Shown: in pieces, positions 653 to 52,312 of the stretch
Position numbering within the stretch: position 1 is the first letter of the stretch
Layout of the letters: each line of letters begins with the position of its first letter
NCBI GenBank assembly: GCA_019912665.1
Contig: JAIOIE010000021.1
Span: 135,679-199,678, forward strand
Length of the DNA stretch: 64,000 bases
Reading direction: 5' to 3'
DNA from: Deltaproteobacteria bacterium
GTDB taxonomy: Bacteria; Desulfobacterota; GWC2-55-46
Notes under the pieces: model-generated
The model's database searches: none
What the model was told of the DNA's origin: nothing
The model's input: the letters and a program-made list of their open reading frames with translations, nothing else
Translations under genes and position numbers: made by a program

Positions 653-804
653 TACATCTCCGAATGAAGCCGCTTCAAGCGGCCCGGAATAGCCGCCGCA
701 CGCCCTTTTGGGGCCATTTGCAGCGGACTCTCTTCAAGAAAAACCGCCGCGCATCTCTTAGGGCCGGGGCGGCGGTCTCCGTTATTTTCTTTAAAATCCT
801 GGCA

Positions 805-880
805 GTCTCTAAAAATTAGAGATACTTCACGCTTTTCCGTAACTACCCGGAGTCCGGGGAAAAGATCGATTTTTGGAGGT
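805..880 (+). repeat. Copy 1 (short form) of a three-copy intergenic repeat. Core palindrome CTCTAAAAATTAGAG at 807-821.
   Basis: Near-identical segments occur at 12271-12400 and 44136-44270, sharing CTCT(A/G)AAAATTAGAGAT ... TTTTCCCG ... GTAACTAC(C/G)C(G/A)GAGTCCGGG(G)AAAAGATC(G/A)ATTT. This copy lies between yajC and secD. Confidence 0.8.
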
Positions 881-886
881 TGCCTA

Positions 887-1207
887 CTATGACTGGGGCT
901 TCCTGACAGTGACTGCCTCCTTCGAAACCTTTATTCTTACGCCCTCGGAGACCTCTACGGTCACGGTGTCCTCGTTCACGGCGGTTATCCTGCCGTGTAT
1001 GCCGCCGGAGGTGATTACGCTATCGCCCTTCTGGAGGGCCGATATCATCTGCTTGTGCTCCTTGGCCCTCTTCTGCTGCGGCCTTATGAGGAGGAAGTAG
1101 AAAATGACGAACAGGATTATGAGCGGGGCTATGCTCATGATGCCGGAAAGCGGCGAAGCCGCCGGCGCGTCCTGGGCATAAGCGGTTGCAACGGGGAAAA
1201 ACAGCAC
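887..1207 (-). CDS. yajC: Preprotein translocase subunit YajC.
   Basis: 106 aa with a hydrophobic segment followed by IRPQQKRAKEHKQM...GDSVITSGGIHGRITAV, the YajC signature. It sits between tgt and secD in the conserved order. Confidence 0.9.
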   Translation of the reverse strand: MLFFPVATAYAQDAPAASPLSGIMSIAPLIILFVIFYFLLIRPQQKRAKEHKQMISALQKGDSVITSGGIHGRITAVNEDTVTVEVSEGVRIKVSKEAVTVRKPQS

Positions 1208-1278: not shown

Positions 1279-2424
<1,146 letters not shown>

Positions 2425-2487
2425 TCAGATGCTCACAATTCGTATATAGAACCAGAAAACCGATGCGGAATATTATAGCAGACTTTT

Positions 2488-3513: not shown

Positions 3514-3568
3514 GCCGTCCCTTATATTCTAAACAAAAGGAGAGTAGGATAAAATCTTTATTTTACGG

Positions 3569-4720
3569 CTAGTTACGAAAAGAGAGGCCCCGTTGGAGAT
3601 CGGTGCCCGGATAGAAGTGCCGGAGTATGTCCCGGTAGGAATACCCGTTCTCGGCCATGCCCTTTGCCCCCCATTGCGAAAGGCCTACCCCATGGCCAGA
3701 CCCCCTCCCCCTGAATATGAAAACATCGCCTTCCTTCGCCACCTCGAAAATCGCTGACCTCAAGCTCGAATAGCCCAGGACCTTCCTCAATTCCTCCCCT
3801 GAAAGCCAGGCGTCCCTGCCTTCGCGGTCGCGGACGCTCAATGTCCGTATCCTCGCGGCAGAGGTGGTCTCGATGATCGTAAGCTCTTGGGGCGTGCCTA
3901 TCTGATGGCCTGCCCTGGAGAGCGCCTCGCCAAGCGACTCGGCCGGGACCGCGAATTCCCAGAGATACTTCGGGGCCGCCTCGTCGAAGGGGCTTTCAAC
4001 CGGCACGAGATACGGATAGCCCTTGAGCCAGACCTCGCTCGCCGCTTCGGTCATTCCTCCGGCGTTTGAATGGTATACCGTAAGGGCCGGCTCGCCGTCG
4101 AAGACGAGTATCTCTCCCCTGGTATCCATGACCGCCCGTATCGAGGCGCTGTCCTCGCTCGATGCCCCGCCGTAGACCTGCCCCATGACCGAGCTTTCGA
4201 CGTGGTACGGGAGGTTCGACCTCTTCCTCATATTGTATACGGCATAGGTCCGGGCAATGATCGCCTGGGCTTTAAGCACCTCTTCAGGCCACCTGGAGGA
4301 TATCTCGTTATTGATTATCCCGGCCACATAGGCTTCAAGTCCTATTTCGTTTATTACAAGCGCCTGCCCGTTACTGGCCGCGACATCGAGAACGCCTCTG
4401 TAAGGCTTCCCGTTTACGGAGATGAACCTGCCTTTGGGAAAAATCCTTACCGGGAGCGTAGCCCTGGAACCGTTTAAGAGTATTGTGCCGTTGTTACCGG
4501 CCCGCACAAGCAAGTCGCCCCTGTCCGTGCCCTTCAGCTCGATCTGGCCGCCTGATTTGAGTATAAGGACCCTTACCTTCTCATCGCCGCCCGCCTGCCC
4601 TGGCGCCGCATGGAGGCAGCCTCCGATAAAAAGCGCAAGGACCCATATGAGCCTGAGCGGGCTTATCTTGAGGAATTCAGTCATTTTCCGGGATTTGTAC
4701 CAGGGACGGCGATACGGCAA
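3569..4720 (-). CDS. SpoIID/LytB-domain protein, a putative amidase enhancer.
   Basis: 383 aa with a signal peptide. The central and C-terminal regions match the SpoIID/LytB domain. Confidence 0.75.
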   Translation of the reverse strand: MPYRRPWYKSRKMTEFLKISPLRLIWVLALFIGGCLHAAPGQAGGDEKVRVLILKSGGQIELKGTDRGDLLVRAGNNGTILLNGSRATLPVRIFPKGRFISVNGKPYRGVLDVAASNGQALVINEIGLEAYVAGIINNEISSRWPEEVLKAQAIIARTYAVYNMRKRSNLPYHVESSVMGQVYGGASSEDSASIRAVMDTRGEILVFDGEPALTVYHSNAGGMTEAASEVWLKGYPYLVPVESPFDEAAPKYLWEFAVPAESLGEALSRAGHQIGTPQELTIIETTSAARIRTLSVRDREGRDAWLSGEELRKVLGYSSLRSAIFEVAKEGDVFIFRGRGSGHGVGLSQWGAKGMAENGYSYRDILRHFYPGTDLQRGLSFRN

Positions 4721-4758
4721 AAGGTCTCACGGTATTCCGCATACTTACATCCGTGCGC

Positions 4759-4968: not shown

Positions 4969-5025
4969 TTCCAGTCTCTTTGGTTCAAGGCAGCTATTGG
5001 AGCCGCCTAAGCTTACTTGAAGGGT

Positions 5026-5379
5026 TTACCTTGCCTTGCAGTTGCAGAGCTTCCTGAGATAGTCCTTTAATTCGAGTATCTCGTTCTTTGAAAACGTTTT
5101 TCCGTACGGCGGCATGAGACTAGACTTGCTTGTCGCCTGCCCGCCGTCTGTTATGGCGTTTACTATGTCCTCGTCCGTAAGCTTCCCCATCTCGAGCGCG
5201 CTCGTGTGGTCTCTCGGGCTTACGGGCATCTCCCTCGTTGCGTTTATGCCGTTCCCTTTTCCCTCAAGGCCGTGGCACTGGGCGCAGTGGAACCTGTAGT
5301 TCTCCTCCGCGGTGGCGGCGTAAGATAAAGAGGCGGCCCCGAATGCAAGGAAAAGAGGCAAAGCGTAGAATTTCTTCAT
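5026..5379 (-). CDS. Monohaem c-type cytochrome (class I) with signal peptide.
   Basis: 117 aa with an N-terminal signal peptide, a single CAQCHG haem-binding motif and a distal Met. Confidence 0.8.
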   Translation of the reverse strand: MKKFYALPLFLAFGAASLSYAATAEENYRFHCAQCHGLEGKGNGINATREMPVSPRDHTSALEMGKLTDEDIVNAITDGGQATSKSSLMPPYGKTFSKNEILELKDYLRKLCNCKAR

Positions 5380-6041
5380 CTAAGGCTCCCAACGTAAGAG
5401 GCAAGCCCCTTCATCTCCGCGTCGTTGATTATCCCGGCATAGACCGGCATCATCTTGACTGGCTTGAATACGGCGGGCTTTGAAAGATACGCATATATCC
5501 AGTCGGGGTTGAGCCTCTCGGAGGCCAGAGCGAGCGAAGGCCCCGAGAACCCGCCGACGATATTCCCCCTCGTCCTCACCTGGTGGCAGCCGTAGCAGGA
5601 ATATCTCCTTACGAAGGCGACCCTGCCTTTGGGGTTATCCACGGCGCGAATGCCGAGGGGCTTCGCATCGGCTGACTTGAGGCTCATGAGATAGGCCGCA
5701 ACGTCCGTTGCTTCCCGCCCGGAAAGCCGCGGGTGGTCGCCCCTGTTCCTCTCGGTAATGGAGTTATATGCCATGGGCCTTATGGGCTTCGGGTCAGCCA
5801 GCCACCTTTCGAGAAAACCGGCATTGAACTTGCTTCCTGAATACCACAATTCAGGGCCTTTTTTTGCGAGCTGGTCCTTTATTGTCTTTTCAGCGGCCGG
5901 GCCCGAGACCTGGTGGCATGTGGCGCATTTTCTGGCCTCGAACGCCTTTTTACCCTCAGGCACCCCGGCATGGGCGCCGGTCGATATGAACAGGGCTGCG
6001 GCAAGGACTGGAATGGCGGCTAAGTGAACGGCTCTACGCAT
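5376..6041 (-). CDS. Dihaem c-type cytochrome with signal peptide.
   Basis: 221 aa with a signal peptide and two CXXCH motifs (CATCHQ, CYGCHQ). Its start overlaps the stop of the downstream cytochrome by 4 nt. Confidence 0.8.
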   Translation of the reverse strand: MRRAVHLAAIPVLAAALFISTGAHAGVPEGKKAFEARKCATCHQVSGPAAEKTIKDQLAKKGPELWYSGSKFNAGFLERWLADPKPIRPMAYNSITERNRGDHPRLSGREATDVAAYLMSLKSADAKPLGIRAVDNPKGRVAFVRRYSCYGCHQVRTRGNIVGGFSGPSLALASERLNPDWIYAYLSKPAVFKPVKMMPVYAGIINDAEMKGLASYVGSLR

Positions 6042-6147
6042 CTTTACTCCGGATAATGATGTGCAGACTCATGGTAACGGGCCGGGGTTCTTTTGTCAAG
6101 GGTTTTGAGGCTGAAAAGCCCTTTCAAAACACGGGCTTCTGGATAGG

Positions 6148-7620
6148 TCAGATGATTTCGTACCTCTCCTGGTGAAACCTCTCGACCGGCTTTATCAGGA
6201 CCTTTTTCCCGAACTTACGCTCAAGGTCCTGCATGGGGGCAGGGTCCTCCTTTAGGCGCTCGGATATGGACGGGCTCACGTAGATGGTCGCCTTTTTCTT
6301 CCTCAAGGGAAGCTCCCTTGCAAGCTCCCTGTAAATGTCCATTATTATGGTGTCCTTGGCCTTTATCTGGGCGTTACCGTCGCAATACGGACAGGGCTCA
6401 CAGAGCGACTGCGAGAGGCTCTCCCTCACCCTTTTCCTCGTCATCTCGACTATACCAAGCTCGGAGATCTTCAATATGTTGGTGCGGGCCTTGTCGGCCT
6501 TCAAGGCCTCCTTCAAGGTGTTATATACCTTCTCCCTGTCGGATTGCCTTGCCATGTCTATGAAGTCTATTACAATAATGCCGCCTATGTTACGGAGCCG
6601 GAGCTGGTAGACTATCTCCTTTACGGCCTCGAGGTTCGTCTTGACGATAGTGTCCTCGGAGCTCCTTTTTCCGACGTACTTTCCTGTATTGACGTCAACG
6701 GCCGTAAGGGCCTCCATCTGGTCTATCACGATGTGCCCGCCCGAGCGGAGCCATACCTTCCTTTCGAGCGCGTCCGTAAGCTCTATCTCCACGCCGCGGG
6801 CGTCGAAGATGTCCTCCTTGCCCTCGTAGAGCTCCAGCCTTCCGGCGAGGTGCGGCATGAACTCCTCGAGGAACTTCTTCGCCCTCTCGTACTCGTCCCT
6901 GGAGTCTATGACGAGCCTTTCTATGTCCTCGGAAAAGAGGTCCCTGATGGTCCTTAAGGCAAGGTCGAGCTCGGCCCAGACCAGTCCCGGGGTCCTCACC
7001 TCTTCCTTCTTCTTCAAGATGGCCTTCCAGAGCTTTATGAGGAACTCCATGTCGGCCTGCACGTCTTCCTTCTTCATGCCCTCGCAGACGGTCCGTATGA
7101 TGAAGCCGTAGCCGGGCGGCCGTATGGAAGAGACTATCTCGCGGAGCCTCTTTCTCTCCTTCTCGCTCGATATCCTCCTGGAAATGGCGATCTTGTCGTA
7201 GGTGGGCATGAGGACAAGGTAGCGGCCCGGGAGAGAGGCATAGGAGGTCACGCGGGCGCCCTTTGTGCCGATGGGCTCCTTAGCGGCCTGCACCATTATC
7301 TCCTGGCCTTCCTTCACTATGTCCTGGATGCGGACGTTAGCGTGGCGCTTGTGCTCCTCCTCGTCCTCCTCGAAGCCCTCGGGCGGCTCCTTTATGTCCG
7401 AGACGTGGAGGAACGAGGTCCTCTGGATGCCTATCTCCACAAAGGCGGACTGCATGCCCGGAAGGACCCTGACAATACGGCCCTTGTAGATGTTCCCGGT
7501 TATGCCCCTGTCCTTGGCGCGCTCCACGTAAAACTCGGAGAGCCTGCCCTGTTCGATAAGCGCCACCCTCGTCTCAAAGGGGTTCGAGCTTATCACAAGT
7601 TCTGTTTTGGTTGTTTTCAT
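6148..7620 (-). CDS. rng: Ribonuclease G (Rne/Rng family endoribonuclease).
   Basis: 490 aa with an S1 domain (GNIYKGRIVRVLPGMQSAFVEIG) followed by the RNase E/G catalytic core (DFIDM...ITEALTAVDVNTG...GGIIVIDFIDM). Length fits RNase G rather than RNase E. Confidence 0.88.
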   Translation of the reverse strand: MKTTKTELVISSNPFETRVALIEQGRLSEFYVERAKDRGITGNIYKGRIVRVLPGMQSAFVEIGIQRTSFLHVSDIKEPPEGFEEDEEEHKRHANVRIQDIVKEGQEIMVQAAKEPIGTKGARVTSYASLPGRYLVLMPTYDKIAISRRISSEKERKRLREIVSSIRPPGYGFIIRTVCEGMKKEDVQADMEFLIKLWKAILKKKEEVRTPGLVWAELDLALRTIRDLFSEDIERLVIDSRDEYERAKKFLEEFMPHLAGRLELYEGKEDIFDARGVEIELTDALERKVWLRSGGHIVIDQMEALTAVDVNTGKYVGKRSSEDTIVKTNLEAVKEIVYQLRLRNIGGIIVIDFIDMARQSDREKVYNTLKEALKADKARTNILKISELGIVEMTRKRVRESLSQSLCEPCPYCDGNAQIKAKDTIIMDIYRELARELPLRKKKATIYVSPSISERLKEDPAPMQDLERKFGKKVLIKPVERFHQERYEII

Positions 7621-7659
7621 ACCCGCGATGGACGCTCTCCTAAGCGGGAAAGAGCGCCC

Positions 7660-10224
7660 TTACTGGACGGACCTGGTCTTCAAGATGGGGATTAAGGAGG
7701 CGGATTCCCTTGGCAGGCCGAGAAGGCACGCGAGCACGTCGTGAGGCCGGACAGACGCGCCCGAGGCCTTTTTGAGCGTAAGCCGGAGCGTCAGGCCGTC
7801 GATGCGGGAAAGCCCGTCAACGAGCGGCCTCAAGTCTATGTCCCTTGTCCTGCCTTCCTTTTCGATACTTACCGGAATGGAGTCCCTGCTAAGAAAATCC
7901 CTTAAAAACCCATCAATTCTTTCGGAATCTATATCCAAGCCCAAAGGGCCGTCCTTCAAAGTTATAATATACTCAGTCATGATACCAGAGGGGAGCGGAA
8001 GTTTCAAGGGCAAGGAAGAAGCTGAGAGGAATCTTATCCCCTCGGGCATCTCCCGGTTCAGACTCTCGACGAGCCCGGCCGGGTCGGTCTTTCCGGATAG
8101 CTCCATATCCATGTACTCGTCCATGGACTCGATTCCGACCGGCAGGGGCTGCCCGAACGAGAGCTTGGGCATGGGGTGGAAACCCTGCGAGTACCTTATG
8201 GGGAGGCCCGCCCTCCTTATGCCCCTTATGACCGCGGCCATGAGCTCAAGGTGGCCCAAGAGCCGGGCCCCGTCCGTTTTCGAATACCTGAGCCTCACAC
8301 GGAAGGCCTCTTCCGGCGGCAGAGGCCTCCGCTCATCAGCGCCATATTCCGCCCCGCCGGAGATAGACCTGGGCCTTATGGCCTTCCAGTCGCATAGGCC
8401 GCAGTCCGAGCATTTCCCTACCTTACAGTCCGGGGTCCCCGCAAGCTCAAGGGCCCTCTCGTACTCCTTTATAAGGAACTTCTTCGTTGCGCCCGTTTCC
8501 AGGTGCTCCCAGGGGAAGACCTCGTCAAAGGGCCTTCTCCTCCGGGTGTAGAACCCGGGGTCCAGGCCTGCCTCGGCAAGGGCCTCCTTCCATTTCGCGA
8601 AGTCGAAGAGCTCGCTCCAGCCGTCGAACCTGCAGCCTTTCCTGAAGGCGAGGAGGACCGCCTTAGAAAGCCTCCTGTCGCCCCTGGAGAATACCCCCTC
8701 CATGATGCTCATGTCCGCGTCGTGCCATTTGAAGCCGAGCTTTAGCTTCGTAAGCTCCCGGCGAAGGACCGCCTGCTTCTGAACCCCCTCCTCCATCGTG
8801 ATCTGCGGCTCCCACTGGAACGGAGTATGGGGCTTCGGGATGAATGAGGACGCGCTCACGTTTATCTGAGGCCATCTGCCGGACGCCTCCTTGCCGATAT
8901 TCTTGACGCACCCGGCAAGCCGGACTATCTGGAGGATGTCCTCTTCGGTCTCGGTCGGGAGGCCTATCATGAAATAGAGCTTTACCGAGCTCCAGCCGAG
9001 GGTGAATATGTCGCGGGCCGCGGCATGGAGGTCCTCCTCGGTTATGCCCTTGTTTATGAGCCGGCGCAGTCTTTCGCTTCCGGCCTCGGGCGCGAGCGTA
9101 AATCCTGTCTTCCTGACCTTTCTTATCTCTGAGGCTAGGGCCGAGCTCAAGGTGCCGACCCTGAGGGAAGGGAGCGATACCGCGATCTTCTCCTCGGAAA
9201 ACCTCCTCATGAGCCCTGAAAGGAGCGTTTCTATGTCCGTATAGTCGCCGGTACTGAGGGAAAGAAGCGAGACCTCGTCGTAGCCGGTATTGCTCAGGGT
9301 CTCGTCGATTATCCTCTTTATTAGCGCGGGCTCCCTTTCCCTTACCGGCCTGTATATCATCCCGGCCTGGCAGAACCTGCAGCCCCTTGTGCAGCCGCGC
9401 GCGATCTCGACGCTCACCCTGTCGTGGACGGTCTCCATGAAGGGCACTACGGGCCTCGTCGGGAGCGGAAGAGCGTTTATGTCCGGGACCGTCCTTTTAA
9501 TTACTCTCTCGTACCCTTCAAGGAGCGGGACTATCCTTCTTACCGTGCCGTCATCATGATATTCCGGCTCGAAGAAGGACGGCACATAGACGCCCGGTAT
9601 GCTGGCAAGCCTTTCAAGCGCCTCTTCCCTTCCCCCTCCCTTCTCCTTCCACTCGATTATCGCGTCCGCTATCTCGATTGCGGCCTCTTCGCCGTCTCCG
9701 AGAAGGAAAGCGTCGAAAAACTCGGCCACGGGCTCGGGGTTGAAGGCGACCGGCCCTCCCCCTATGACAAAGGGGTCTTCCTTCCCCCTCTCTTTCGCGA
9801 AGAGGGGGATGCGGCCCAGCTCCAGCATATTAAGTACGTTGGTATACGAGAGCTCGTACTGTAGCGAAAGGCCCAGTATGTCTAGTTCTTTCAATGGAAT
9901 GCCTGATTCAAGGGTGGATAGCGGCATGCCCCGCTCCCGGAGGAGCCTTTCCATATCGGCCCAGGGAGCGAACACCCTTTCGCACGAGATATCATCGCGG
10001 CCATTGAGGATCTGATATAGTATCTGTATCCCCAGATGGCTCATGCCTATCTCGTAGGCGTCCGGGAAGCCCAGGCCAAAGGCGAGCTTCACCTTCGAAA
10101 GGTCTTTCTTTACGGAATTGACCTCGCCGCCCATGTACCTTGACGGCCTTCTTACTAGTGGGAGGAGTTTTTTAATGTCAGTTGCCATTTCAAATATAAA
10201 TGCGTTTTTTATTCTGACGTGCAA
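7660..10224 (-). CDS. B12-binding-domain radical SAM protein (TIGR03960-like) fused to a C-terminal DUF2344-like domain.
   Basis: 854 aa with a conserved N-terminal block (FPDAYEIGMSHLGIQILYQILN), the radical-SAM motif CTRGCRFCQAG, then a ~250 aa C-terminal extension. The true start may be the internal MATDIKK. Confidence 0.8.
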   Translation of the reverse strand: MHVRIKNAFIFEMATDIKKLLPLVRRPSRYMGGEVNSVKKDLSKVKLAFGLGFPDAYEIGMSHLGIQILYQILNGRDDISCERVFAPWADMERLLRERGMPLSTLESGIPLKELDILGLSLQYELSYTNVLNMLELGRIPLFAKERGKEDPFVIGGGPVAFNPEPVAEFFDAFLLGDGEEAAIEIADAIIEWKEKGGGREEALERLASIPGVYVPSFFEPEYHDDGTVRRIVPLLEGYERVIKRTVPDINALPLPTRPVVPFMETVHDRVSVEIARGCTRGCRFCQAGMIYRPVREREPALIKRIIDETLSNTGYDEVSLLSLSTGDYTDIETLLSGLMRRFSEEKIAVSLPSLRVGTLSSALASEIRKVRKTGFTLAPEAGSERLRRLINKGITEEDLHAAARDIFTLGWSSVKLYFMIGLPTETEEDILQIVRLAGCVKNIGKEASGRWPQINVSASSFIPKPHTPFQWEPQITMEEGVQKQAVLRRELTKLKLGFKWHDADMSIMEGVFSRGDRRLSKAVLLAFRKGCRFDGWSELFDFAKWKEALAEAGLDPGFYTRRRRPFDEVFPWEHLETGATKKFLIKEYERALELAGTPDCKVGKCSDCGLCDWKAIRPRSISGGAEYGADERRPLPPEEAFRVRLRYSKTDGARLLGHLELMAAVIRGIRRAGLPIRYSQGFHPMPKLSFGQPLPVGIESMDEYMDMELSGKTDPAGLVESLNREMPEGIRFLSASSLPLKLPLPSGIMTEYIITLKDGPLGLDIDSERIDGFLRDFLSRDSIPVSIEKEGRTRDIDLRPLVDGLSRIDGLTLRLTLKKASGASVRPHDVLACLLGLPRESASLIPILKTRSVQ

Positions 10225-10376
10225 ACAAAAACCATTTTGTGCGTTGCCGCGCGCTTTGGTGTTGCAGGGCTCCGTTCGCTTTCACCCTCCAGCCCTATGC
10301 TCGCTCCGCCCTGCACCCGTGTATCTGGAAAACAAATAGATACGGATTCTCAGCTTAAGTTGTTTTTGATGCGGAA

Positions 10377-11957
10377 TCAACACACCCCGCACCGCGTGCA
10401 CTTTCCCACGATACACGGCGGAGTCGTCTTTCCGGCAAGCCCCTTCTGATACTCCTTCCAGAAATAGTCCTTATTGACCCCGTGGTCTATTATGTCCCAG
10501 GGTAATACTTCGTCCCTGCTTCTTGCATGGTATACCGACTCCATGATAAACCCCTCTTTCCCTTTTATCGCCCTCTTCCAGCCCTTTTGAGAAGCCGCCT
10601 CGATTATTTCTCCGGCCCTCCTGTCCGCCCTTGAAAGATAGGCCTGCACGAATGCCTCTTTTGCCGGCATGTCCCTCACGGTTATCCCAGCCTTCCCCAG
10701 GGCCTTATTCAAAGTCCGCTGTCTCCCCTCGATGACCTCAAGGGGGGCGAACGGGTGCCACTGGAAAGGGGTGCACGGCTTCGGGACAAAAGGATTGACG
10801 CTAAGGTTGACCTCCCCGCCCTTAAGCGCCTTTCTTATATTAATCGAAAGGTCGATTATGCCCTGGACGTCCTCGTCTGTCTCTCCGGGGAGGCCGAGCA
10901 TGAAATAGAGCCTTACCCTCCTGAACCCGGCCTCGCTTATGAGACGGACCGCCTCCATTATGTCCGCGTCCGTGATGCCTTTATTTATTATGTCCCTCAT
11001 CCGCTCGGTCCCGGCCTCGGGCGCAAGTGTCATGGTCCTGTAGCCGGCTTCCCTGAGTAGCGCAAGGAACTCTTCGTCAAGCTCATCCAGCCTGAGCGAT
11101 GAAAGTGTGACGGTCGTTTCCTTCCCAATGCCCTTTTTAAGGAGTTCCTTTATCTCCGGGTACTCGGAAACCGCCGCGCCGACAAGCCCCACCTTCCCGG
11201 CCCTTTCAATGCCTTCGTCCATAGCCTTTGCCACGGCCCCGCTTTCGCGCATCCGGGGCGGGAGGTACAGGAACCCTGCGGCGCAGAACCTGCACCCCTT
11301 GCCGCAGCCGCGCTCGACCTCCAGGCAATATGTCTCCTTGAACTCGGTATCGGGCGCATAGACGAAGCTACGCGGGACAGGGAGCCCGTTAACATCAACC
11401 GCCTTGGCCGCCTTTACAACGGGCTTTGCGCCCGGCCTGGGGCTTATCCCTGCTACGGCCGCCCCGTCATAGGTGAAATCATAAAAGGAGGGCACGTAGA
11501 CCCAGTCGAACGAGTCGAGTGCATCGAGCGTTTCTTCCCTGCCCCGGCCCAACTCAATTCCGTGCTTGAGCATACGAAGGACCGGCCCTAACACGCCCTC
11601 GGCCTCGCCTATCAGAAAGAAATCCACGAAGTCGGCAATCGGCTCAGGGTTTAGCGAAACCGCCACACCGCCCGCGGCTATAAGCGGCCCCTGCCCCTGC
11701 CTTTCAGCGGCCCTGGGGTTTATGCCGGCGAGCCTCAATATTCTTATGAAATTGGCGTAATCCTCTTCAAAGGGGATTGCGAAGGCTATTACGTCGAAAT
11801 CCGCTAACTGTTTCTGCGACTCGTAGGAGAGTAGCGTTGTAGCGGTCCTCTCATGTTCGAGGAGGGCGTCTTTATCGGGCAGGAAGGCCCTCTCGCATAC
11901 GCAGTCGTCTACATCGTTAGCTAGCATGTAGACCGACTGGAAGCCCAGGTTAGCCAT
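10377..11957 (-). CDS. B12-binding-domain radical SAM protein, a paralogue of the upstream gene lacking the DUF2344 part.
   Basis: 526 aa with the same motif set (YSVGMANLGFQSVYMLAN, CGKGCRFCAAG). The conserved N-terminal segment continues in frame upstream of the first ATG to about 12095 with no canonical start codon, so the start is uncertain. Confidence 0.75.
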   Translation of the reverse strand: MANLGFQSVYMLANDVDDCVCERAFLPDKDALLEHERTATTLLSYESQKQLADFDVIAFAIPFEEDYANFIRILRLAGINPRAAERQGQGPLIAAGGVAVSLNPEPIADFVDFFLIGEAEGVLGPVLRMLKHGIELGRGREETLDALDSFDWVYVPSFYDFTYDGAAVAGISPRPGAKPVVKAAKAVDVNGLPVPRSFVYAPDTEFKETYCLEVERGCGKGCRFCAAGFLYLPPRMRESGAVAKAMDEGIERAGKVGLVGAAVSEYPEIKELLKKGIGKETTVTLSSLRLDELDEEFLALLREAGYRTMTLAPEAGTERMRDIINKGITDADIMEAVRLISEAGFRRVRLYFMLGLPGETDEDVQGIIDLSINIRKALKGGEVNLSVNPFVPKPCTPFQWHPFAPLEVIEGRQRTLNKALGKAGITVRDMPAKEAFVQAYLSRADRRAGEIIEAASQKGWKRAIKGKEGFIMESVYHARSRDEVLPWDIIDHGVNKDYFWKEYQKGLAGKTTPPCIVGKCTRCGVC

Positions 11958-12270
11958 GCCGACGCTGTACGTGTTCGGATAGACGAGGGCAAGCCTCAGC
12001 TTTCCTCCGTGCTCCTTGTAGGCGGTCCCGCGCTCGATTGAGAGCGCCTCCCTTATCTTTTTTTTAATGGACCAGGATATTGTGCTGCCTCCGGGCGATA
12101 ATACAAAGCATCCTTGAAATTATCCCATAGCGGTGGCGGGTTTACAAGGCGGGAAGGAGGGCAGGCCGCGCCCTCTGGGAAAAGCAGGCGAGGGCGCGGC
12201 GAAAGAACCCGGAATCGATTCTGTCCTTTTCTTATTACGGCCACAGCCTCTTCCGGCGGGCAAACAGCAA

Positions 12271-12400
12271 CTCTGAAAATTAGAGATTTTTCCCGCAATC
12301 AAGGAAGGCCGGGAATAAAAAGCGGAGCATATATTAATAATATATGAGCATTTTTATTCCCGTAACTACGCAGAGTCCGGGAAAAAGATCAATTTTTAAG
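12271..12400 (+). repeat. Copy 2 (long form) of the three-copy intergenic repeat, immediately 3' of ftsZ.
   Basis: CTCTGAAAATTAGAGATTTTTCCCGCAATCAAGGAAGGCCGGGAATAAAAAGCGGAGCATATATTAATAATATATGAGCATTTTTATTCCCGTAACTACGCAGAGTCCGGGAAAAAGATCAATTTTT. Near-identical to 44136-44270. Confidence 0.8.
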
Positions 12401-12401
12401 G

Positions 12402-13568
12402 TCAGTCCGCCTGCTTCCGGAGGAACGTCGGCGTATCGTAAAGGTCCTCGTCGTCCACGTTGAAGCCGCCGAGCTTGCCGAGCCTCCTTATCTCCGTGCT
12501 CTTCAGCTCATAGCCGCCCCTGTCAAGGCCTTTCCTCAATACCGTCGGCACGTCGAGGTTGTCGTCGAGGACCATGGCAGGGGCGATCACCTCTTTTTGG
12601 CGGCCTTCCCTGCCGAAGCCGGTGGCGATAACCGTGACCCTGACCTCCTCGCCCATCGACTCGTCGATGACCGCGCCGAAAATGATGTTCGCGTCCTCGT
12701 GCGCCTCCTCGTGTATGAGGCTCGACGCCTCGTCAACGTCATGGATGGTCATGTCCGAGGAGCCGGTGATGTTTATGAGTATGCCCTTGGCGCCGCTGAT
12801 GGAGATGTCCTCGAGGAGAGGCGAGGAGATGGCCTTTCTTGCGGCCTCGGCGGCCCTGTTCTCGCCCCTTGCGGAGCCGCTTCCCATGAGGGCCTGCCCC
12901 ATCTCGGACATGATGGTGCGGACGTCGGCGAAATCCACGTTCACGAGCCCCGGGATGGTGATGACGTCGGATATTCCGCGTACGGCCTGCAGGAGCACCT
13001 CGTCGGCCCTCCTGAACGCGTCCTTGAGGGAGGTGTTCTTGTTCGCGACGGAAAGGAGCCTCTGGTTCGGGATGGTGATTACGGTATCGACGACTTCGCG
13101 GAGCCTTTTCAAGCCTTCCTCGGCCTGCCTCATCTTCTTCTGGCCCTCGAAGGCGAAGGGCTTGGTGACGACCGCGACCACTAGCGCGCCCGCTTCCCTC
13201 GCGGCCTCGGCGACTATGGGGCCCGCGCCGGTCCCTGTGCCCCCGCCCATTCCGGCGGTGACGAATACCATGTCCGCTCCCCGCACGGCCTCCATGAGAT
13301 GGTCCTTGCTCTCAAGGGCCGCGTTCCTGCCGACCTCGGGGTTTGCGCCCGCGCCGAGGCCCTTTGTGAGGCTTCCGCCGAGCTGCACCCTTATGCTTGC
13401 GAGTGATTTTTCGAGAGCCTGGCTGTCGGTATTGGCCGTCATAAACTCGACCCCGTCAAGACCGCTCTCTATCATGGTGTTCACGGCGTTCCCGCCGCAG
13501 CCCCCGACCCCGATGACCTTGAGTTTCGCGCCGCTGTTGAAGTTCTCGTCCATTTCAATCACCATCAA
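12402..13568 (-). CDS. ftsZ: Cell division GTPase FtsZ.
   Basis: 388 aa with the tubulin signature GGGTGTG, and N-terminal [18 protein letters not shown]. Confidence 0.96.
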
Positions 13569-43703: not shown

Positions 43704-43994
43704 TCAGCCTCTGGGCGAGAATGTCTTGCAGTCCGCGTGCTCGCTGTGGTGGGAGACGTTTATGCCGGGGGCGGTACACTCGTAGGACTTGTTATAATTG
43801 CATTCGTAGGCCCTGCATGCCCCTACGCCGCCGACGATGTCCGCCCCGCCCTTTGTCGGGGCCCTGTAGAAGGTATCGCATGTGGCATGCCCGCCGTCGC
43901 CGACCGTGATAGCCATCGTGTGGCATTCGCTGTTTGTGTTGTACGCGCATTCAAGCACCGTACAGCTCATTATCTTCGGCATTGTAATGGCCAT
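43704..43994 (-). CDS. DUF1540-family small Cys-repeat protein.
   Basis: Start placed at MAITMPK (ATG at 43994-43992, SD AAGGGGGG 6 nt upstream); the track ORF's first 28 aa lack a good SD. 96 aa with two tandem repeats of the DUF1540 module: C-x(3,4)-C-x-YN-x(4)-C-x(10,16)-C-x-TF. Confidence 0.7.
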   Translation of the reverse strand: MAITMPKIMSCTVLECAYNTNSECHTMAITVGDGGHATCDTFYRAPTKGGADIVGGVGACRAYECNYNKSYECTAPGINVSHHSEHADCKTFSPRG

Positions 43995-44135
43995 TTGTAC
44001 CCCCCTTTTTAATTCTTGGAATCCGGGCCGCCCTATCCCCTGTAAATCTGAGTATAACCCCGTTCCGGGCCGTGTCAATCCGCATTAAACCCTAAAGATT
44101 TCCTGCCCGTTTCCGATAAATCTGAGTGGAGGCAA

Positions 44136-44270
44136 CCTCTAAAAATTAGAGATTTTTCCCGCAATCAAGGAAGGCCGGGAATAAAAAGCGGAGCATATAT
44201 GACAATATGTGAGCATTTTTATTACCGGCCTGACGCAGAGTCCGGGGAAAAGATCAATTTCTGGAGGTTG
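44136..44270 (+). repeat. Copy 3 (long form) of the three-copy intergenic repeat, in the divergent DUF1540/HD-GYP intergenic region.
   Basis: CCTCTAAAAATTAGAGATTTTTCCCGCAATCAAGGAAGGCCGGGAATAAAAAGCGGAGCATATATGACAATATGTGAGCATTTTTATTACCGGCCTGACGCAGAGTCCGGGGAAAAGATCAATTTCTGGAGGTTG. Same orientation as copies 1 and 2. Confidence 0.8.
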
Positions 44271-44305
44271 TCTGGATAAAATCGCCCTCCGGACGGCTTA
44301 AATAT

Positions 44306-45553
44306 ATGATGAAAAAAATAAGACTTTCTGAGCTGGAAAAAGGCATGTATGTCTGCGGCGTCGAGAAGCGCGGCATGAGCCCGGTTTTCCTCGTGAATGA
44401 CATCCTCGTGCGCTCGGATGACGACCTGACGAGGATGTCCGCCAGGGGATACGCCCATGTATACATTTCACTGAATGAAAAGGAAGCGGCCCAGCACGCG
44501 GCAAATGACGGGGACGGGGCCGCAGGAGCGCCTTTTTACCCCGGAACAGAAACGCTCACGGCTGCAGATGAAGGGGCCCAAGGGGCAGAAAGCGGCAAAG
44601 ACAACCCGTCCGACCCGTATCGCGAGTTCAAGAAAGAGCTTGCGGAAGCCGAGGACATCCGGCATGACGCCGAGCAGGTGGTTAGGGACTTCCTCCAGAA
44701 CGCCAGGTCCGGGCAGAGTATAGACTCGGACAGGGTCCTCGAAACCGTCGGCCGCATGGTCGACTCGGTAATAAGGAACCAGGACGCGCTCACTAGCCTT
44801 GCAAGGCTCAAGAGCTTCGACGATTACACCTTCGCTCATTCCGTGAACGTGTGCATACTCTCGCTCGCGGTCGGCAGGCACCTCGGGCTCGAGAAAGACG
44901 ACCTCGACCAGCTCGGCCTGGGGGCCATACTCCACGACATAGGGAAGATGCTCGTGCCAGGAGACCTCCTTAACAAGCCCGGCCGCCTTAGCGAAGGCGA
45001 GTTCACGGTCATGAAAAAGCACACGGAGCTCGGCAAGGACGTGCTCGCAGGTATGAAATGCGTGAAGGAGCCCGCTTTGAGGGTGGTGCTCGAGCACCAC
45101 GAGCGCTTCGACGGGAGCGGCTACCACATGCGGCTTTCAGGAAGCGGCATACACCTCTACGCGCGCATAACTGGAATAGCCGACGTGTACGATGCGATGA
45201 CCAGCAACAGGGTCTACCAGAAAGGCATGCGCCCGGAGGACGCGCTCAAGAGGCTATACCATTCAAGAGGCTCCCTCTTCGACCCGGAACTTGTAGAGAG
45301 GCTCATAAAATGCCTGGGGGTCTACCCCATCGGGACCTGCGTAGAGCTCAATACAGGCGAGGCGGCCATCGTCAATATGATAAACCACTCGCACCCGCTT
45401 AAGCCCCGCGTGCTCCTTATAGCGGACAGGGAGGGCCTGCCTTTCCCCGTGCCCCTGGAAACCGACCTCAAGGAGGACGCCGGGAGGTGGATCGTCGGGT
45501 CTAAAAAGCCCGAGGAATTCGCCTTCCATATCCCTGCCCTCTGCGCCAACTGA
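44306..45553 (+). CDS. HD-GYP-type metal-dependent phosphohydrolase (likely c-di-GMP phosphodiesterase) with a variant GYH motif.
   Basis: 415 aa. HD domain (AHSVNVCILS...LGLGAILHDIGKMLVP) followed by LEHHERFDGSGYH, which is HHExxDGxGYP with P replaced by H. Confidence 0.85.
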   Translation: MMKKIRLSELEKGMYVCGVEKRGMSPVFLVNDILVRSDDDLTRMSARGYAHVYISLNEKEAAQHAANDGDGAAGAPFYPGTETLTAADEGAQGAESGKDNPSDPYREFKKELAEAEDIRHDAEQVVRDFLQNARSGQSIDSDRVLETVGRMVDSVIRNQDALTSLARLKSFDDYTFAHSVNVCILSLAVGRHLGLEKDDLDQLGLGAILHDIGKMLVPGDLLNKPGRLSEGEFTVMKKHTELGKDVLAGMKCVKEPALRVVLEHHERFDGSGYHMRLSGSGIHLYARITGIADVYDAMTSNRVYQKGMRPEDALKRLYHSRGSLFDPELVERLIKCLGVYPIGTCVELNTGEAAIVNMINHSHPLKPRVLLIADREGLPFPVPLETDLKEDAGRWIVGSKKPEEFAFHIPALCAN

Positions 45554-50241: not shown

Positions 50242-51126
50242 GTGAAAAGATATTTCTTAATTGTTTGTGGGGTCTTTTTCTTGAATTGCAAAAATACAGC
50301 ATACGCTAATAATGCCCCTGAGCAAGCGACTTCTCCGACTGAAAGGACTCATCTTGAAGAAGTATTCACGCCATGCAAGAAAAAAAATGGTTCCGTTAAA
50401 GAAAATTGCAAAAAAACAGAAAAGCCTTATTATATTGATTTGATGATGGGGGTAGATTATGCATTAGAGGCTAAAGACGAGAATGGAAACAATACTCAAA
50501 ATAATTTTTCAGACGGTAAATTCAATATAGGGCTTACTGCGCATCAAAAATTTAATGCTTATGAAAGTGCAGATCTTTCCCTCTCATCATACCGTGGCTT
50601 TTTGACAGTGAAATTGGCTAGCGCTTCTGTTGAAATCCCAGAAAATGGAGATTCCCAGGTTTTGACTGAGCAAAGATCCTTAGGTATACAAGGAGGATTA
50701 TTTTGGGGATGTCGTTTAAATAAAGATAACCAGAGTTTAAATTTTCAAAGCTATGAAATAGGACCCATAATAAAATTCGGAGGACAAACTTCCGAAATTA
50801 AGGATCAATTAATTACAAGCGGATCTTTGCAGGTTAGGATTTTGCAGACAGGTAAATGGGTAAATGGGGCATATCTCGATGTAGGCTACGGTTTTAATGG
50901 AGCACTCGAGAACGAAGGCAGATGGAAACTAGATGCATTTTTGCCAATTGAAGGGTTACAGCTGAATGGTTCCTATCTAAATTTATTTTTAGCAACCAGC
51001 GTAGAAAGTGATTTGGGAAATAAAAAAGATTTAGTTACATTTAGCGTCGGAACGTTTATAGATTTTATAAGTCTGGGAAAAGCTCTAGGCAATATTTTCA
51101 GTGCAGCTGGAATAAATTTAAATTGA
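50242..51126 (+). CDS. Low-GC (foreign) lipoprotein, predicted beta-rich outer-membrane/surface protein of unknown function.
   Basis: GTG start preceded by a GGAGGGG SD. Signal peptide with lipobox (FFLNC). 294 aa rich in N/S/G/K with alternating hydrophobic patterns (GYGFNGALENEGRWKLDAFL..., LVTFSVGTFIDF). Local GC is visibly far below the flanking DNA. Confidence 0.7.
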   Translation: MKRYFLIVCGVFFLNCKNTAYANNAPEQATSPTERTHLEEVFTPCKKKNGSVKENCKKTEKPYYIDLMMGVDYALEAKDENGNNTQNNFSDGKFNIGLTAHQKFNAYESADLSLSSYRGFLTVKLASASVEIPENGDSQVLTEQRSLGIQGGLFWGCRLNKDNQSLNFQSYEIGPIIKFGGQTSEIKDQLITSGSLQVRILQTGKWVNGAYLDVGYGFNGALENEGRWKLDAFLPIEGLQLNGSYLNLFLATSVESDLGNKKDLVTFSVGTFIDFISLGKALGNIFSAAGINLN

Positions 51127-51367
51127 GTTGTTGAAAATTAAGAGTAACGATATGTAATCATGCTGCGAGTGCTGCGCGACACTGTTCTCATTTAAGCCGC
51201 TTTCTTGCTCTCCCTCACCTCCCTCTTTTTGAGTTTAGTCTTGCGCTGTGCGCGCCATTCCCAATGTACAGCCGATTAAACCTCTTGACTCCCCTCTCCA
51301 CCCCCTTACACTCTAAGTAAAGCCCCTTGTATCCGAAAATTGATTTAATCCGGCTTTTTCTCGAATC

Positions 51368-52312
51368 ATGCAAAAGATAAAGCTCGGCATAAGCTCGTGC
51401 CTTCTGGGAGAAAAGGTGCGCTATGACGGCACGCACCAGAGGGACAGGTACATAACCGACACCCTCGGGAAATACTTCGATTGGCTGCCGGTCTGCCCGG
51501 AGGTGGAGTACGGCCTTCCGGTGCCGAGGGAGGCCATGCGCCTGAAGGCAGGCCCCGAGGGCCAGCGCCTCGTGACCCGAAAGAGCGGCATGGACCACAC
51601 TGAGGGCATGCGCGCATGGGTGAAGGAAAGGCTCGACGAGCTTGAGAAGGAGAATCTGTCGGGCTTCATCTTCAAGGCCAAATCTCCAAGCTCCGGCCTT
51701 TACGGAGTGAAGCTCTATGGCCCTTCGGGGCCGCCTTCGAAAAAGGGGGTTGGGCTTTTCGGAGGCGCGTTCGCCGAGCGCTTCCCCCTTGTGCCTGCCG
51801 AGGACGACGGCAGGCTCCACGACCCGGCCCTCCGCGAAAACTTCATAGAGCGCGTCTTCGTGTACCGGAGGTGGCAGGAGCTGATGCGAAAGCCGGGTGC
51901 AGCCCGCCTCGTGGACTTCCATACCCGGCACAAGCTCCTCATCCTCGCGCACAGCCCGAAGCATTATGCGCTCCTTGGAAAGATCACAGCCAGGGCCGGA
52001 AAATCCAGGGCAGAAAAGCTATACTATGAATACGCCGGAAGCCTCATGGAAGGGCTCCGCATAGTCGCCACGACCAGGAAAAACACCAACGTCCTTTACC
52101 ATATCATGGGGTATTTCAAGGAAAGGCTCTCAGCCCCTGAAAAGAAGGAGTTGCTTGAGGTCATTGGCAACTACCACAACGGGCTTATTCCCCTTATCGT
52201 GCCGATAGTGCTCGTTAACCACTATGTCCTCCTGTTCAAAGAGCCGTACCTCGGGAGGCAATATTACCTTAACCCGCACCCGATAGAGATGATGCTAAGA
52301 AACCACGTGTAG
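51368..52312 (+). CDS. ybgA: DUF523/DUF1722 (YbgA-like; TudS-family Fe-S) protein commonly encoded upstream of photolyase.
   Basis: 314 aa. N-terminal DUF523 (MQKIKLGISSCLLGEKVRYDGTHQRD...CPEVEYGLPVPRE), then a C-terminal DUF1722-like region. Immediately followed by phr, as in ybgA-phr operons. Confidence 0.8.
   Translation: MQKIKLGISSCLLGEKVRYDGTHQRDRYITDTLGKYFDWLPVCPEVEYGLPVPREAMRLKAGPEGQRLVTRKSGMDHTEGMRAWVKERLDELEKENLSGFIFKAKSPSSGLYGVKLYGPSGPPSKKGVGLFGGAFAERFPLVPAEDDGRLHDPALRENFIERVFVYRRWQELMRKPGAARLVDFHTRHKLLILAHSPKHYALLGKITARAGKSRAEKLYYEYAGSLMEGLRIVATTRKNTNVLYHIMGYFKERLSAPEKKELLEVIGNYHNGLIPLIVPIVLVNHYVLLFKEPYLGRQYYLNPHPIEMMLRNHV

What the first reader, a model, noticed from the sequence alone, without database searches (positions are those of the whole stretch)
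12271..12400. Three-copy intergenic repeat family with a perfect 15-bp palindrome (CTCTAAAAATTAGAG)
Near-identical elements sit at 805-880, 12271-12400 and 44136-44270, all in the same orientation.

- **Shared core.** Each carries the palindrome CTCT(A/G)AAAATTAGAG, then TTTTCCCG, then GTAACTAC(C/G)C(G/A)GAGTCCGGG(G)AAAAGATC(G/A)ATTT; copies 1 and 3 end in TGGAGGTTG.
- **Long forms.** Copies 2 and 3 carry an extra ~55-bp internal module (CAATCAAGGAAGGCCGGGAATAAAAAGCGGAGCATATAT...GAGCATTTTTATT) containing an AT-rich near-palindrome.
- **Location.** All three lie in 5' regions of minus-strand genes (secD; the second B12-radical-SAM gene; the DUF1540 gene). Copy 3 is also upstream of the plus-strand HD-GYP gene.

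This degree of sequence identity between unrelated intergenic regions is not expected by chance. Possible roles are a shared operator/promoter module for a dimeric regulator (the palindrome), a small structured RNA, or a MITE-like mobile repeat.
Basis: seen in the sequence. Interest (0 to 1): 0.6.

Follow-up and report, generated by a model that had tools for sequence, protein, structure and literature searches.

The report
Small IS5-type mobile repeat (MITE)
The three look-alike intergenic segments are copies, in different states of decay, of a 142-bp non-coding "jumping" DNA element that carries the end sequences of IS5-family insertion sequences; this is an ordinary kind of selfish repeat, though this family has not been described before.

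Summary
The repeat is real. The three window copies (801-884, ~12265-12401, 44131-44272) belong to a dispersed family, with at least 84 copies in four related groundwater "Deltaproteobacteria/Desulfobacterota UBA5799" MAGs plus this window.

A full copy has these features:
- 142 bp long.
- 17-bp terminal inverted repeats, GGCAACCTCTAAAAATT.
- Folds end to end into a hairpin.
- Flanked by a 4-bp target-site duplication, mostly T-W-A-A. Window copy 3 has TGGA on both sides.

Mobility is shown by filled versus empty orthologous sites in both directions. Internally deleted forms (84, 63, 46 bp) exist. Window copy 1 is one of them. A close relative carries a short form at the exact ftsZ site of window copy 2.

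The same 17-bp ends bound ~1.27-kb insertion sequences in metagenomes. These encode IS5-family transposases and also make 4-bp TTAA duplications.

Verdict: this is a MITE of the IS5 family, presumably moved in trans. It is formed by the inner part of the left terminal repeat plus AGAG, and it is not an operator.

One point is unexplained. Where a copy abuts a stop codon, it is the right end 24 times and the left end 5 times.

The parts
44131..44272 (+). Copy 3: full-length 142-bp element. It lies between the DUF1540 gene (43704..44078, minus strand) and the HD-GYP gene (44306..45553, plus strand).
   Evidence: nhmmer matches model positions 1-141 at 157 bits. The left terminal repeat is 17/17 and the right is 14/17. 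Flanking genes identified.
44127..44130 (.). Left copy of the 4-bp target-site duplication (TGGA) of copy 3.
   Evidence: Sequence read directly; flank comparison.
44273..44276 (.). Right copy of the 4-bp target-site duplication (TGGA) of copy 3.
   Evidence: Sequence read directly; flank comparison.
44131..44147 (+). Left terminal inverted repeat GGCAACCTCTAAAAATT.
   Evidence: The identical 17-mer bounds IS5-family insertion sequences.
44256..44272 (-). Right terminal inverted repeat. Here it reads AATTTCTGGAGGTTGTC; the consensus is AATTTTTAGAGGTTGCC.
   Evidence: 3 mismatches.
44173..44230 (+). Central AT-rich hairpin module, GGCCGGGAATAAAAAGCGGAGCATATATGACAATATGTGAGCATTTTTATTACCGGCC. This part is lost in the short forms.
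   Evidence: Fold; alignment. The apical loop is variable. In a subfamily the basal stem shows a C:G to G:C double change.
801..884 (+). Copy 1: 84-bp internally deleted (short) form with both terminal repeats (2 mismatches each) and a degenerate duplication, TCCT (797-800) versus TACT (885-888). It lies 2 nt downstream of the yajC stop codon (887-889) and ~140 nt upstream of the secD start (~661).
   Evidence: Other short forms are L032, L064 and L009 2917-2962.
12265..12401 (+). Copy 2: long form with a degenerate left terminal repeat and a right terminal repeat lacking its last ~6 nt. It abuts the ftsZ stop codon (12402-12404). This looks like an immobilised fossil.
   Evidence: model positions 6-135, 129.5 bits. 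The orthologous site in L066 holds a short form; L067-L075 are empty.
5376..5379 (-). Empty target site, ATGA (stop/start overlap of two cytochrome c genes, 5376..6041 and 5026..5379). In MAG H5_GWC this site is occupied by a full copy flanked by ATGA...ATGA.
   Evidence: L036 is 84-88% identical to window 4217-11918 and has an extra 146 bp at this point. Genes identified.

Best explanation

Shown:
- A full copy is 142 bp and non-coding.
- It is bounded by 17-bp terminal inverted repeats, GGCAACCTCTAAAAATT.
- It is self-complementary over almost its whole length.
- It is flanked by a 4-bp duplication of the target, preferentially T-(A/T)-A-A.

Inferred mechanism: an IS5-family DDE transposase, supplied in trans by a full-length insertion sequence with the same ends, binds the two terminal repeats. 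It excises the element and inserts it at a staggered 4-bp cut in AT-rich tetramers. In this 57% G+C genome such tetramers are found mostly at stop codons and just upstream of ribosome-binding sites, where insertions are tolerated.

After insertion, copies decay by point mutation, erosion of the ends, and deletion of the central hairpin.

In this window:
- Copy 3 is an intact-looking insertion.
- Copy 1 is a hairpin-deleted short form.
- Copy 2 is an end-eroded fossil.
- Copies 1 and 2 lie between genes on the same strand, so they are probably co-transcribed with yajC-secD and ftsZ. They would put a long hairpin in those transcripts. No regulatory role is shown.
For: **Multicopy and dispersed.** An exact 23-mer occurs in 65 loci of 4 related MAGs. 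A profile search finds 84 copies in those loci plus the window.

**Terminal repeats and consensus.** Derived from 35 full copies.

**Whole-element hairpin.** -76.8 kcal/mol, z = -13.2.

**Target-site duplication.** A perfect 4-bp direct repeat flanks 13 of 42 non-redundant full copies. Permutation predicts 2.0 (maximum 8 in 2000), and there is no such excess at 2, 3 or 6 bp. Many are non-palindromic (TAAA, TACA, TCAT, TTCA, TGGA), so they are not extensions of the inverted repeat.

**Mobility.**
- The orthologous site is filled in L036 (ATGA|element|ATGA) and empty in the window (single ATGA at 5376-5379).
- The site after ftsZ is filled in the window and in L066, and empty in nine loci from more distant relatives, L067-L075.

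**In-situ decay.**
- L066 has a short form at the same junction as window copy 2.
- A deletion series runs 142/84/63/46 bp, and there is a solo terminal repeat.

**Autonomous relatives.**
- Insertion sequences of 1.23-1.29 kb are bounded by the same 17-mer (L182 has both ends 17/17).
- Each encodes a 339-353 aa transposase with DUF772 and DDE_Tnp_1 domains. They score 252-292 bits against NCBIfam NF033581 'IS5 family transposase', whose cutoff is 140.
- They have 4-bp duplications: TTAA in three of them (L083 and L161 look like the same insertion), ATTA in one.
- One insertion-sequence end matches the MITE left end over 27 nt at 93%.

**Assembly behaviour.** A short-read contig (L077) breaks exactly at window copies 2 and 1, as expected for a repeat.
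Against: - No IS5-like transposase was found in the ~0.6 Mb of host-lineage DNA that could be examined. A resident mobilising insertion sequence is therefore inferred, not shown. The insertion sequences with identical ends come from other, lower-G+C organisms.
- Only about a third of copies keep a perfect duplication. The rest differ at 1-4 positions, which fits ageing but weakens the statistic.
- A purely selfish, symmetric-ended element does not predict the strong orientation bias at stop codons (right end 24, left end 5). Either selection or an unknown mechanistic asymmetry is also acting.
Confidence: 0.93

Rival explanations
1. A domesticated MITE. The family began as a transposon, but copies at gene 3' ends are kept in one orientation because they act in cis. 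Possible roles are an orientation-dependent mRNA 3' hairpin (stability or RNase III processing), an attenuator between genes of an operon, or a source of outward transcription toward the downstream gene.
For: - Where an end lies within 16 nt of the stop codon of a gene reading toward it, it is the right end 24 times and the left end 5 times (p = 5e-4), although both ends are identical for 17 nt.
- Between genes on the same strand, the element is antisense 25 times and sense 10 times.
- The two strands fold with different stability, -76.8 versus -66.6 kcal/mol.
- A subfamily has a compensatory double change in the central stem.
Against: - No promoter-like or terminator-like site was found in the element on either strand.
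- Copies decay freely: short forms, eroded ends, and absence in close relatives.
- The compensatory change may be a single inherited event.
- Orientation coherence along contigs largely follows gene-strand coherence, so some of the bias may be indirect.
- There are no transcript data.
Confidence: 0.15
2. A shared operator or promoter module: the CTCTAAAAATTAGAG inverted repeat binds a dimeric regulator that co-regulates secD, the radical SAM gene and the DUF1540/HD-GYP genes.
For: An inverted repeat is present in all three window copies, and all three lie upstream of some gene.
Against: - The repeat is the inner part of the transposon's terminal repeat plus four bases. The same terminal repeat bounds unrelated elements in many metagenomes.
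- It is intact in only about two thirds of copies.
- Copies sit at variable distances (30-400+ nt) from downstream starts, and mostly right after stop codons.
- The neighbouring genes are functionally unrelated.
- Insertion sites are polymorphic between close relatives.
Confidence: 0.03
3. A family of small structured RNA genes or a cis-regulatory RNA (for example a riboswitch-like leader).
For: - Very stable predicted fold, z = -13.
- High sequence conservation between copies.
Against: - No Rfam family matches, either at gathering score in the window or at E<=1 in three consensus copies.
- The fold is a near-perfect end-to-end hairpin of the two halves of an inverted repeat, present on both strands.
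- There are target-site duplications and empty sites.
- Copies occur in both orientations relative to genes.
- No promoter or terminator was found.
Confidence: 0.03
4. A REP/BIME-like palindromic element moved by a RAYT (HUH) transposase, or an IS200/IS605-derived palindrome-associated element.
For: - The location just downstream of stop codons and the orientation bias are reminiscent of such single-strand-transposing elements. This is a comparison from general knowledge; PMC5027513 was listed.
Against: - The copies have long terminal inverted repeats and variable 4-bp direct duplications. Single-strand HUH transposition does not produce either.
- The ends are identical to those of DDE (IS5-family) insertion sequences.
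Confidence: 0.01

Closest known systems
IS5-family insertion sequences (IS5 group; NCBIfam NF033581 'transpos_IS5_4' type) and MITEs derived from them
   Same: - Identical 17-bp terminal inverted repeats, GGCAACCTCTAAAAATT.
- 4-bp target duplication with TTAA-like preference.
- Similarity to one insertion-sequence end extends to 27 nt.
- A plasmid-borne relative in Cereibacter has a related terminal repeat, GGGCACCTCGAAAAATTG, and a 4-bp duplication.
   Different: - No transposase gene; only 142 bp.
- The interior is a hairpin unrelated to the insertion-sequence interior.
- The cognate full-length insertion sequence in the host lineage was not found.
Correia elements (CREE/NEMIS) of Neisseria (from general knowledge)
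   Same: - Roughly 100-160-bp non-coding elements with terminal inverted repeats.
- Many copies close to genes.
- Long and internally deleted short forms coexist.
- Co-transcribed as hairpins.
   Different: - Correia elements duplicate TA and have ~26-bp terminal repeats of unrelated sequence.
- Their promoter, terminator and RNase III effects are experimentally shown. None of these is shown here.
Other bacterial MITEs: MITEAba12 of Acinetobacter (PMC6382973), Coxiella MITEs (PMC5896051), the Porphyromonas gingivalis MITE (PMC4596501). All three were only listed and were not read here.
   Same: Small non-autonomous elements with terminal inverted repeats, thought to be mobilised in trans by insertion-sequence transposases.
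   Different: Different sequences, hosts and parent insertion sequences. No sequence relationship was tested.
ERIC/IRU-type enterobacterial repeats (from general knowledge)
   Same: Imperfect palindromes of about 120-130 bp in transcribed intergenic regions. Orientation-dependent effects on flanking mRNA have been reported for them.
   Different: Unrelated sequence. Orientation-dependent effects are only a hypothesis here.

Membership tests
MITE (miniature inverted-repeat transposable element) | Small size (tens to a few hundred bp) and no coding capacity | tested here: met
   The consensus is 142 bp. From my own reading of the consensus, two of the three reading frames entering from either end hit a stop within 19 nt. 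ORF lists show no called gene inside any window copy.
MITE (miniature inverted-repeat transposable element) | Terminal inverted repeats | tested here: met
   17-bp GGCAACCTCTAAAAATT at both ends, with 35 pairs at <=3 mismatches. Imperfect complementarity continues inward.
MITE (miniature inverted-repeat transposable element) | Target-site duplication of fixed length | tested here: met
   A 4-bp direct repeat is perfect in 13/42 copies versus 2.0 expected. The excess is specific to 4 bp. Window copy 3 has TGGA/TGGA.
MITE (miniature inverted-repeat transposable element) | Multiple dispersed copies | tested here: met
   84 copies in 65 loci of four MAGs plus the window.
MITE (miniature inverted-repeat transposable element) | Insertion polymorphism: precise filled versus empty orthologous sites | tested here: met
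   L036 is filled and window 5376-5379 is empty. The window and L066 are filled after ftsZ, and L067-L075 are empty.
MITE (miniature inverted-repeat transposable element) | Ends shared with an autonomous element that encodes the transposase | tested here: met
   Insertion sequences of 1.23-1.29 kb with the same 17-bp ends encode IS5-family transposases. These insertion sequences are from other organisms.
MITE (miniature inverted-repeat transposable element) | A cognate transposase source in the same genome, and demonstrated mobilisation | not testable with these tools
   tblastn found none in the ~0.6 Mb of host-lineage DNA held. Whole genomes could not be fetched and no experiment is possible.
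IS5 family (IS5 group) derivative | 4-bp target duplication at AT-rich, TTAA/YTAR-like targets (family table recalled from ISfinder) | tested here: met
   MITE flank frequencies are T(67-80%)-W-A-A(59-76%). The insertion sequences with the same ends have TTAA in three cases and ATTA in one.
IS5 family (IS5 group) derivative | Transposase with DDE_Tnp_1 catalytic domain of IS5 type, associated with these ends | tested here: met
   Pfam DUF772 and DDE_Tnp_1. NF033581 scores 252-292 bits against a cutoff of 140.
Rfam RNA families (sRNA, riboswitch, other) | Match to a curated covariance model | tested here: not met
   No match at gathering score in the window, nor at E<=1 in L022, L049 or L061.
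REP/BIME or IS200/IS605-derived palindromic elements | No terminal inverted repeats and no target duplication; insertion next to a fixed tetra/pentanucleotide | tested here: not met
   Terminal repeats and variable 4-bp duplications are present.
Correia element (Neisseria) | TA duplication and ~26-bp Correia terminal repeats (recalled) | tested here: not met
   The duplication is 4 bp and the terminal repeat sequence is different.

The most novel reading that the evidence does not exclude
The MITE is not neutral at gene ends. Its 5:1 preference for placing one particular end against stop codons, despite identical terminal repeats, may reflect one of two things. It could be an orientation-dependent cis function that hosts retain, such as an mRNA 3'-end hairpin, a processing site or outward transcription. 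Alternatively, IS5-type transposition may itself be directional with respect to transcription or replication of the target.
Probability: 0.15. Interest if true: 0.5.

Novelty: new member of a known kind. Interest (0 to 1): 0.25.

Why it matters
- **Annotation.** These segments should be labelled as mobile-element copies, not as regulatory sites or RNA genes.
- **Assembly.** They explain contig breaks and possible mis-joins in MAGs of this lineage. A short-read contig ends exactly at two of the window copies.
- **Evolution.** They give a set of insertion polymorphisms usable as strain and lineage markers in an uncultured groundwater Desulfobacterota group.
- **Link to IS5.** They connect this lineage to a very widespread IS5-type end sequence that also bounds many other miniature elements in rumen, gut, marine, sludge and sediment metagenomes.
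- **Open question.** The orientation bias at stop codons is modest but real. It could be tested with complete genomes and transcript data.

Tried and rejected
1. **Rfam.** Searches of the window (gathering) and of three consensus copies (E<=1) found nothing at the element.
2. **Promoter/terminator scans.** Scans around copies 2 and 3 found no site inside the element.
3. **Plasmid blastn.** Copy 3 against the plasmid collection gave no match.
4. **RNAalifold.** On 54 copies it gave no useful consensus (-0.65 kcal/mol) because of indels, so no covariation claim is built on it.
5. **Replication-strand explanation of the orientation bias.**
   - Orientation is coherent along H5_GWC contigs, but so is gene strand.
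   - GC skew follows the coding strand.
   - On contig 8 the copies flip together with the genes, at a convergent gene pair separated by an ordinary two-way terminator with no obvious dif-like site.
   - I could not separate the two factors.
6. **Intrinsic asymmetric target.** The left flank is AT-richer than the right. The difference vanishes for 14 copies far from genes, so it looks like a by-product of sitting at gene boundaries.
7. **Resident IS5 transposase.** tblastn over all host-lineage loci held found none.
8. **IS110-family insertion sequence near two copies (L030, L054).** I considered it as the mobiliser and rejected it. From general knowledge that family makes neither long terminal repeats nor such duplications; the flank alignments were uninformative.
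9. **Literature.** Nothing was found on UBA5799.

Full report
**Observation**

The three segments are real and far beyond chance.
- The block GAGTCCGGGRAAAAGATCRATTT occurs exactly three times in the window (850, 12373, 44238), where shuffles predict 0.01.
- The block CTCTRAAAATTAGAGAT occurs three times (807, 12271, 44137), where shuffles predict 0.30. All copies are on the + strand.
- Repeat finding and alignment confirm that copies 2 and 3 are co-linear over ~130 bp. Copy 1 lacks a ~58-bp internal module.

Two details of the finding need correction.
- The '15-bp perfect palindrome' is a 6-bp inverted repeat (CTCTAA/TTAGAG) around three A's. Its reverse complement, CTCTAATTTTTAGAG, is a different sequence.
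- The element is longer than reported on both sides.

**Gene context**

- On the minus strand the order is tgt (1279..2406), yajC (887..1207), copy 1 (801-884), secD (start ~661).
- Further along it is ftsZ (12402..13568), copy 2 (~12265-12401), then a radical SAM gene (10377..11957).
- Copy 1 lies 2 nt after the yajC stop codon. Copy 2 begins directly after the ftsZ stop codon.
- Copy 3 (44131-44272) lies between the divergent DUF1540 (43704..44078, minus strand) and HD-GYP (44306..45553, plus strand) genes.

**A multicopy family**

- One scan of species-representative genomes with the 23-mer returned 65 loci. All came from four MAGs labelled Deltaproteobacteria bacterium or bacterium: H5_GWC, UBA5799, NC_groundwater_1638 and DP16D_bin.2.
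- The window itself comes from an ENA contig named Desulfobacterota_UBA5799_NODE_73.
- Printing all copies in register showed what the window alone could not: the element has defined ends.
- Thirty-five copies with both ends gave this 142-bp consensus: GGCAACCTCTAAAAATT-AGAGATTTTTCCCGCAATCAAGGAAGGCCGGGAATAAAAAGCGGAGCATATATGACAATATGTGAGCATTTTTATTCCCGGCCTGACACAGAGTCCGGGGAAAAGATC-AATTTTTAGAGGTTGCC. It has perfect 17-bp terminal inverted repeats.
- A profile search finds 84 copies in the loci plus the window. Each also scores on the opposite strand, because the whole element is an imperfect palindrome.
- It folds end to end at -76.8 kcal/mol (z = -13.2). The other strand folds at -66.6 kcal/mol.

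**Evidence that it transposes**

1. *Target-site duplication.* A perfect 4-bp direct repeat flanks 13 of 42 non-redundant full copies. Permutation of flanks predicts 2.0 (maximum 8 in 2000 permutations), with no excess at 2, 3 or 6 bp.
   - The duplicated tetramers (TAAA, TTAA, TTTA, TACA, TCAT, TTCA, AAAA, TGGA) are mostly T-W-A-A.
   - Many are non-palindromic, so they are duplications and not a longer inverted repeat.
   - Window copy 3 has TGGA on both sides.
2. *Site filled elsewhere, empty here.* L036 (H5_GWC) is 84-88% identical to window 4217-11918.
   - It carries a full copy flanked by ATGA...ATGA.
   - The window has a single ATGA there, the stop/start overlap of two cytochrome c genes at 5376-5379.
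3. *Site filled here, empty elsewhere.* Nine loci with FtsZ 91% identical to the window's have no element after ftsZ. These include a 2.59-Mb contig. They have a GC-rich hairpin with a T run instead.
4. *Decay in place.* L066 (FtsZ 98% identical) has, at exactly the same junction with the ftsZ stop codon, a ~66-bp form lacking the central hairpin.
   - Short forms therefore arise by deletion in place.
   - A deletion series of 142, 84 (window copy 1, L032), 63 (L064) and 46 bp (L009), plus a solo terminal repeat (L031), is seen.
5. *Assembly behaviour.* A short-read contig (L077) starts and ends at window copies 2 and 1, as repeats make assemblies do.

**What moves it**

I scanned metagenomes for the terminal repeat followed by bases that the MITE does not have, using the pattern GGCAACCTCTAAAAATTYH.
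- It returned 120 loci from very different habitats. The 17-mer was usually preceded by TTAA-like tetramers and followed by many unrelated interiors.
- Among them are pairs of inverted terminal repeats 1.23-1.29 kb apart: L182, L113/L140/L189, L181/L083/L161, L116 and L192.
- Each pair encloses one 339-353-aa ORF. These ORFs have DUF772 and DDE_Tnp_1 domains.
- They score 252-292 bits against NCBIfam NF033581 'IS5 family transposase', whose cutoff is 140.
- These insertion sequences have 4-bp duplications: TTAA in L181, L083 and L161, and ATTA in L116. L083 and L161 look like the same insertion.
- One end of the L113 insertion sequence matches the MITE's left end over 27 nt at 93%.
- A plasmid relative in Cereibacter (56% identical transposase) has a related terminal repeat and a 4-bp duplication.

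The element is therefore a MITE of the IS5 family.

The step 'a resident IS5-type transposase acts in trans' is inferred. No such gene is present in the ~0.6 Mb of host-lineage DNA I could read, and whole genomes were out of reach.

**Where it lands, and an unexplained bias**

- Using a simple codon-usage gene finder trained on these loci, no strongly scoring copy lies inside a predicted gene.
- Among non-redundant copies, an end lies within 16 nt of the stop codon of a long, well-scoring gene reading toward it 29 times. It is the right end 24 times and the left end 5 times (p = 5e-4). Window copy 1, which scored too low to be counted, is a further right-end case.
- Several genes end in the terminal repeat's own TAA, or in a TAG formed at the junction.
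- Insertion at stop codons fits the T-W-A-A target in a 57% G+C genome, together with selection against insertions inside genes.
- The orientation bias does not follow from that, because both ends are identical for 17 nt.

I tested three explanations and none held.
- *Replication strand.* Orientation is coherent along contigs, but gene strand is too. On H5_GWC contig 8 the copies flip together with the genes.
- *Asymmetric target.* The AT-richer left flank disappears for copies far from genes.
- *Promoter or terminator in the element.* None was detected.

Family-specific orientation biases of insertion sequences relative to replication are documented (PMC3971601), so a mechanistic cause is conceivable. 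Selection on transcripts is the other candidate. I leave this open.

**Rivals**

- *Operator or promoter.* This is contradicted by the variable distance to gene starts, the partial conservation of the palindrome, the insertion polymorphism, and the fact that the motif is a transposon end found in unrelated organisms.
- *RNA gene family.* This is contradicted by the absence of Rfam matches, the duplications and empty sites, and the occurrence of copies in both orientations relative to genes.
- *REP/RAYT or IS200/IS605-type elements.* These are excluded by the terminal repeats and duplications.
- *Assembly artefact.* This is excluded because the copies occur in independent assemblies from ENA, NCBI, JGI and Logan.

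**Comparison with known systems, and novelty**

- This works like, and qualifies as, a bacterial MITE. Every defining feature that could be tested was met.
- Its closest relatives by sequence are IS5-family insertion sequences with the same ends.
- In anatomy and genomic behaviour it resembles Correia elements of Neisseria: long and short forms, gene-proximal location, hairpins in transcripts. It is not a member of that family, since the duplication and terminal repeats differ.
- No paper in the library mentions this lineage, so the family is undescribed. The kind is well known, however: a new member of a known kind.
- Interest is low to moderate. The value lies in correct annotation, in explaining MAG fragmentation, and in the modest puzzle of the orientation bias.

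Noticed in passing
L060 4244-4471; also L007 ~5280-5570, L014 5506-5801, L020 4114-4400, L054 233-546: A second small repeat sits inside the loop of the MITE's left inverted repeat in several copies. Its ends are about GGAAGCTCTGATTAATTC and its interior reads GTCATTGCGAGCGAAGCGAAGCAATC...CTCGCAATGAC. This is either a nested second MITE or a composite variant that spreads as a unit. In sediment metagenomes a 140-bp element has the first MITE's terminal repeats around a similar interior (L138 1769-1908, L173, L191).
   Followed up: partly
L030 3776-4958 (ORF 3808..4758, minus strand) and L054 980-2135: A 1.2-kb repeat is 95.8% identical between two H5_GWC contigs. By the look of its sequence (not run against a family library) it encodes an IS110-family-like transposase. 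Both copies lie 150-450 bp from MITE copies, among related small repeats.
   Followed up: partly
L021 1687-1828 versus L044 4547-4687; L002/L008/L057: Synteny between the UBA5799 and H5_GWC MAGs stops exactly at the right end of a shared MITE copy. Three H5_GWC contigs share one flank of a copy but not the other. This indicates rearrangement or mis-assembly at MITE copies.
   Followed up: no
L077 (Logan SRR15661999, 11,451 bp), corresponding to window ~880-12300: A short-read contig identical to the window over this stretch begins and ends at window copies 2 and 1. The repeat fragments short-read assemblies of this organism.
   Followed up: yes
window 12147-12119 (minus strand): A sigma-70-like promoter, TTGTAA-17 nt-GATAAT with a TG extension, lies upstream of the radical SAM gene. 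The surrounding sequence (CCTTGTAAACCCG...CTATGGGATAATTT) is conserved in all relatives examined (L066-L075), with or without the MITE.
   Followed up: partly
L112 1210-1242, L125 1879-1911, L136 602-634, L162 5089-5121; L085 975-1030; L165 1131-1219: In unrelated metagenomes the same terminal repeat forms minimal 33-bp elements consisting of two terminal repeats only (GGCAACCTCTAAAAATTCTTTTTAGAGGTTGCC). It also forms several other mini-elements of 43-190 bp. Many independent MITE families seem to share this IS5-type end.
   Followed up: partly
window 33662-34032 (minus strand) and 35446-35518 (minus strand): Bacterial RNase P RNA class A (303 bits) and a tRNA gene. These are ordinary and unrelated to the finding.
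   Followed up: no
window 48001-52000: G+C drops to 0.50 against ~0.58 elsewhere. Two ORFs there (50242..51126 plus strand, 51215..51964 minus strand) have no Pfam match. No transposase was found among the ORFs tested in this part of the window.
   Followed up: partly
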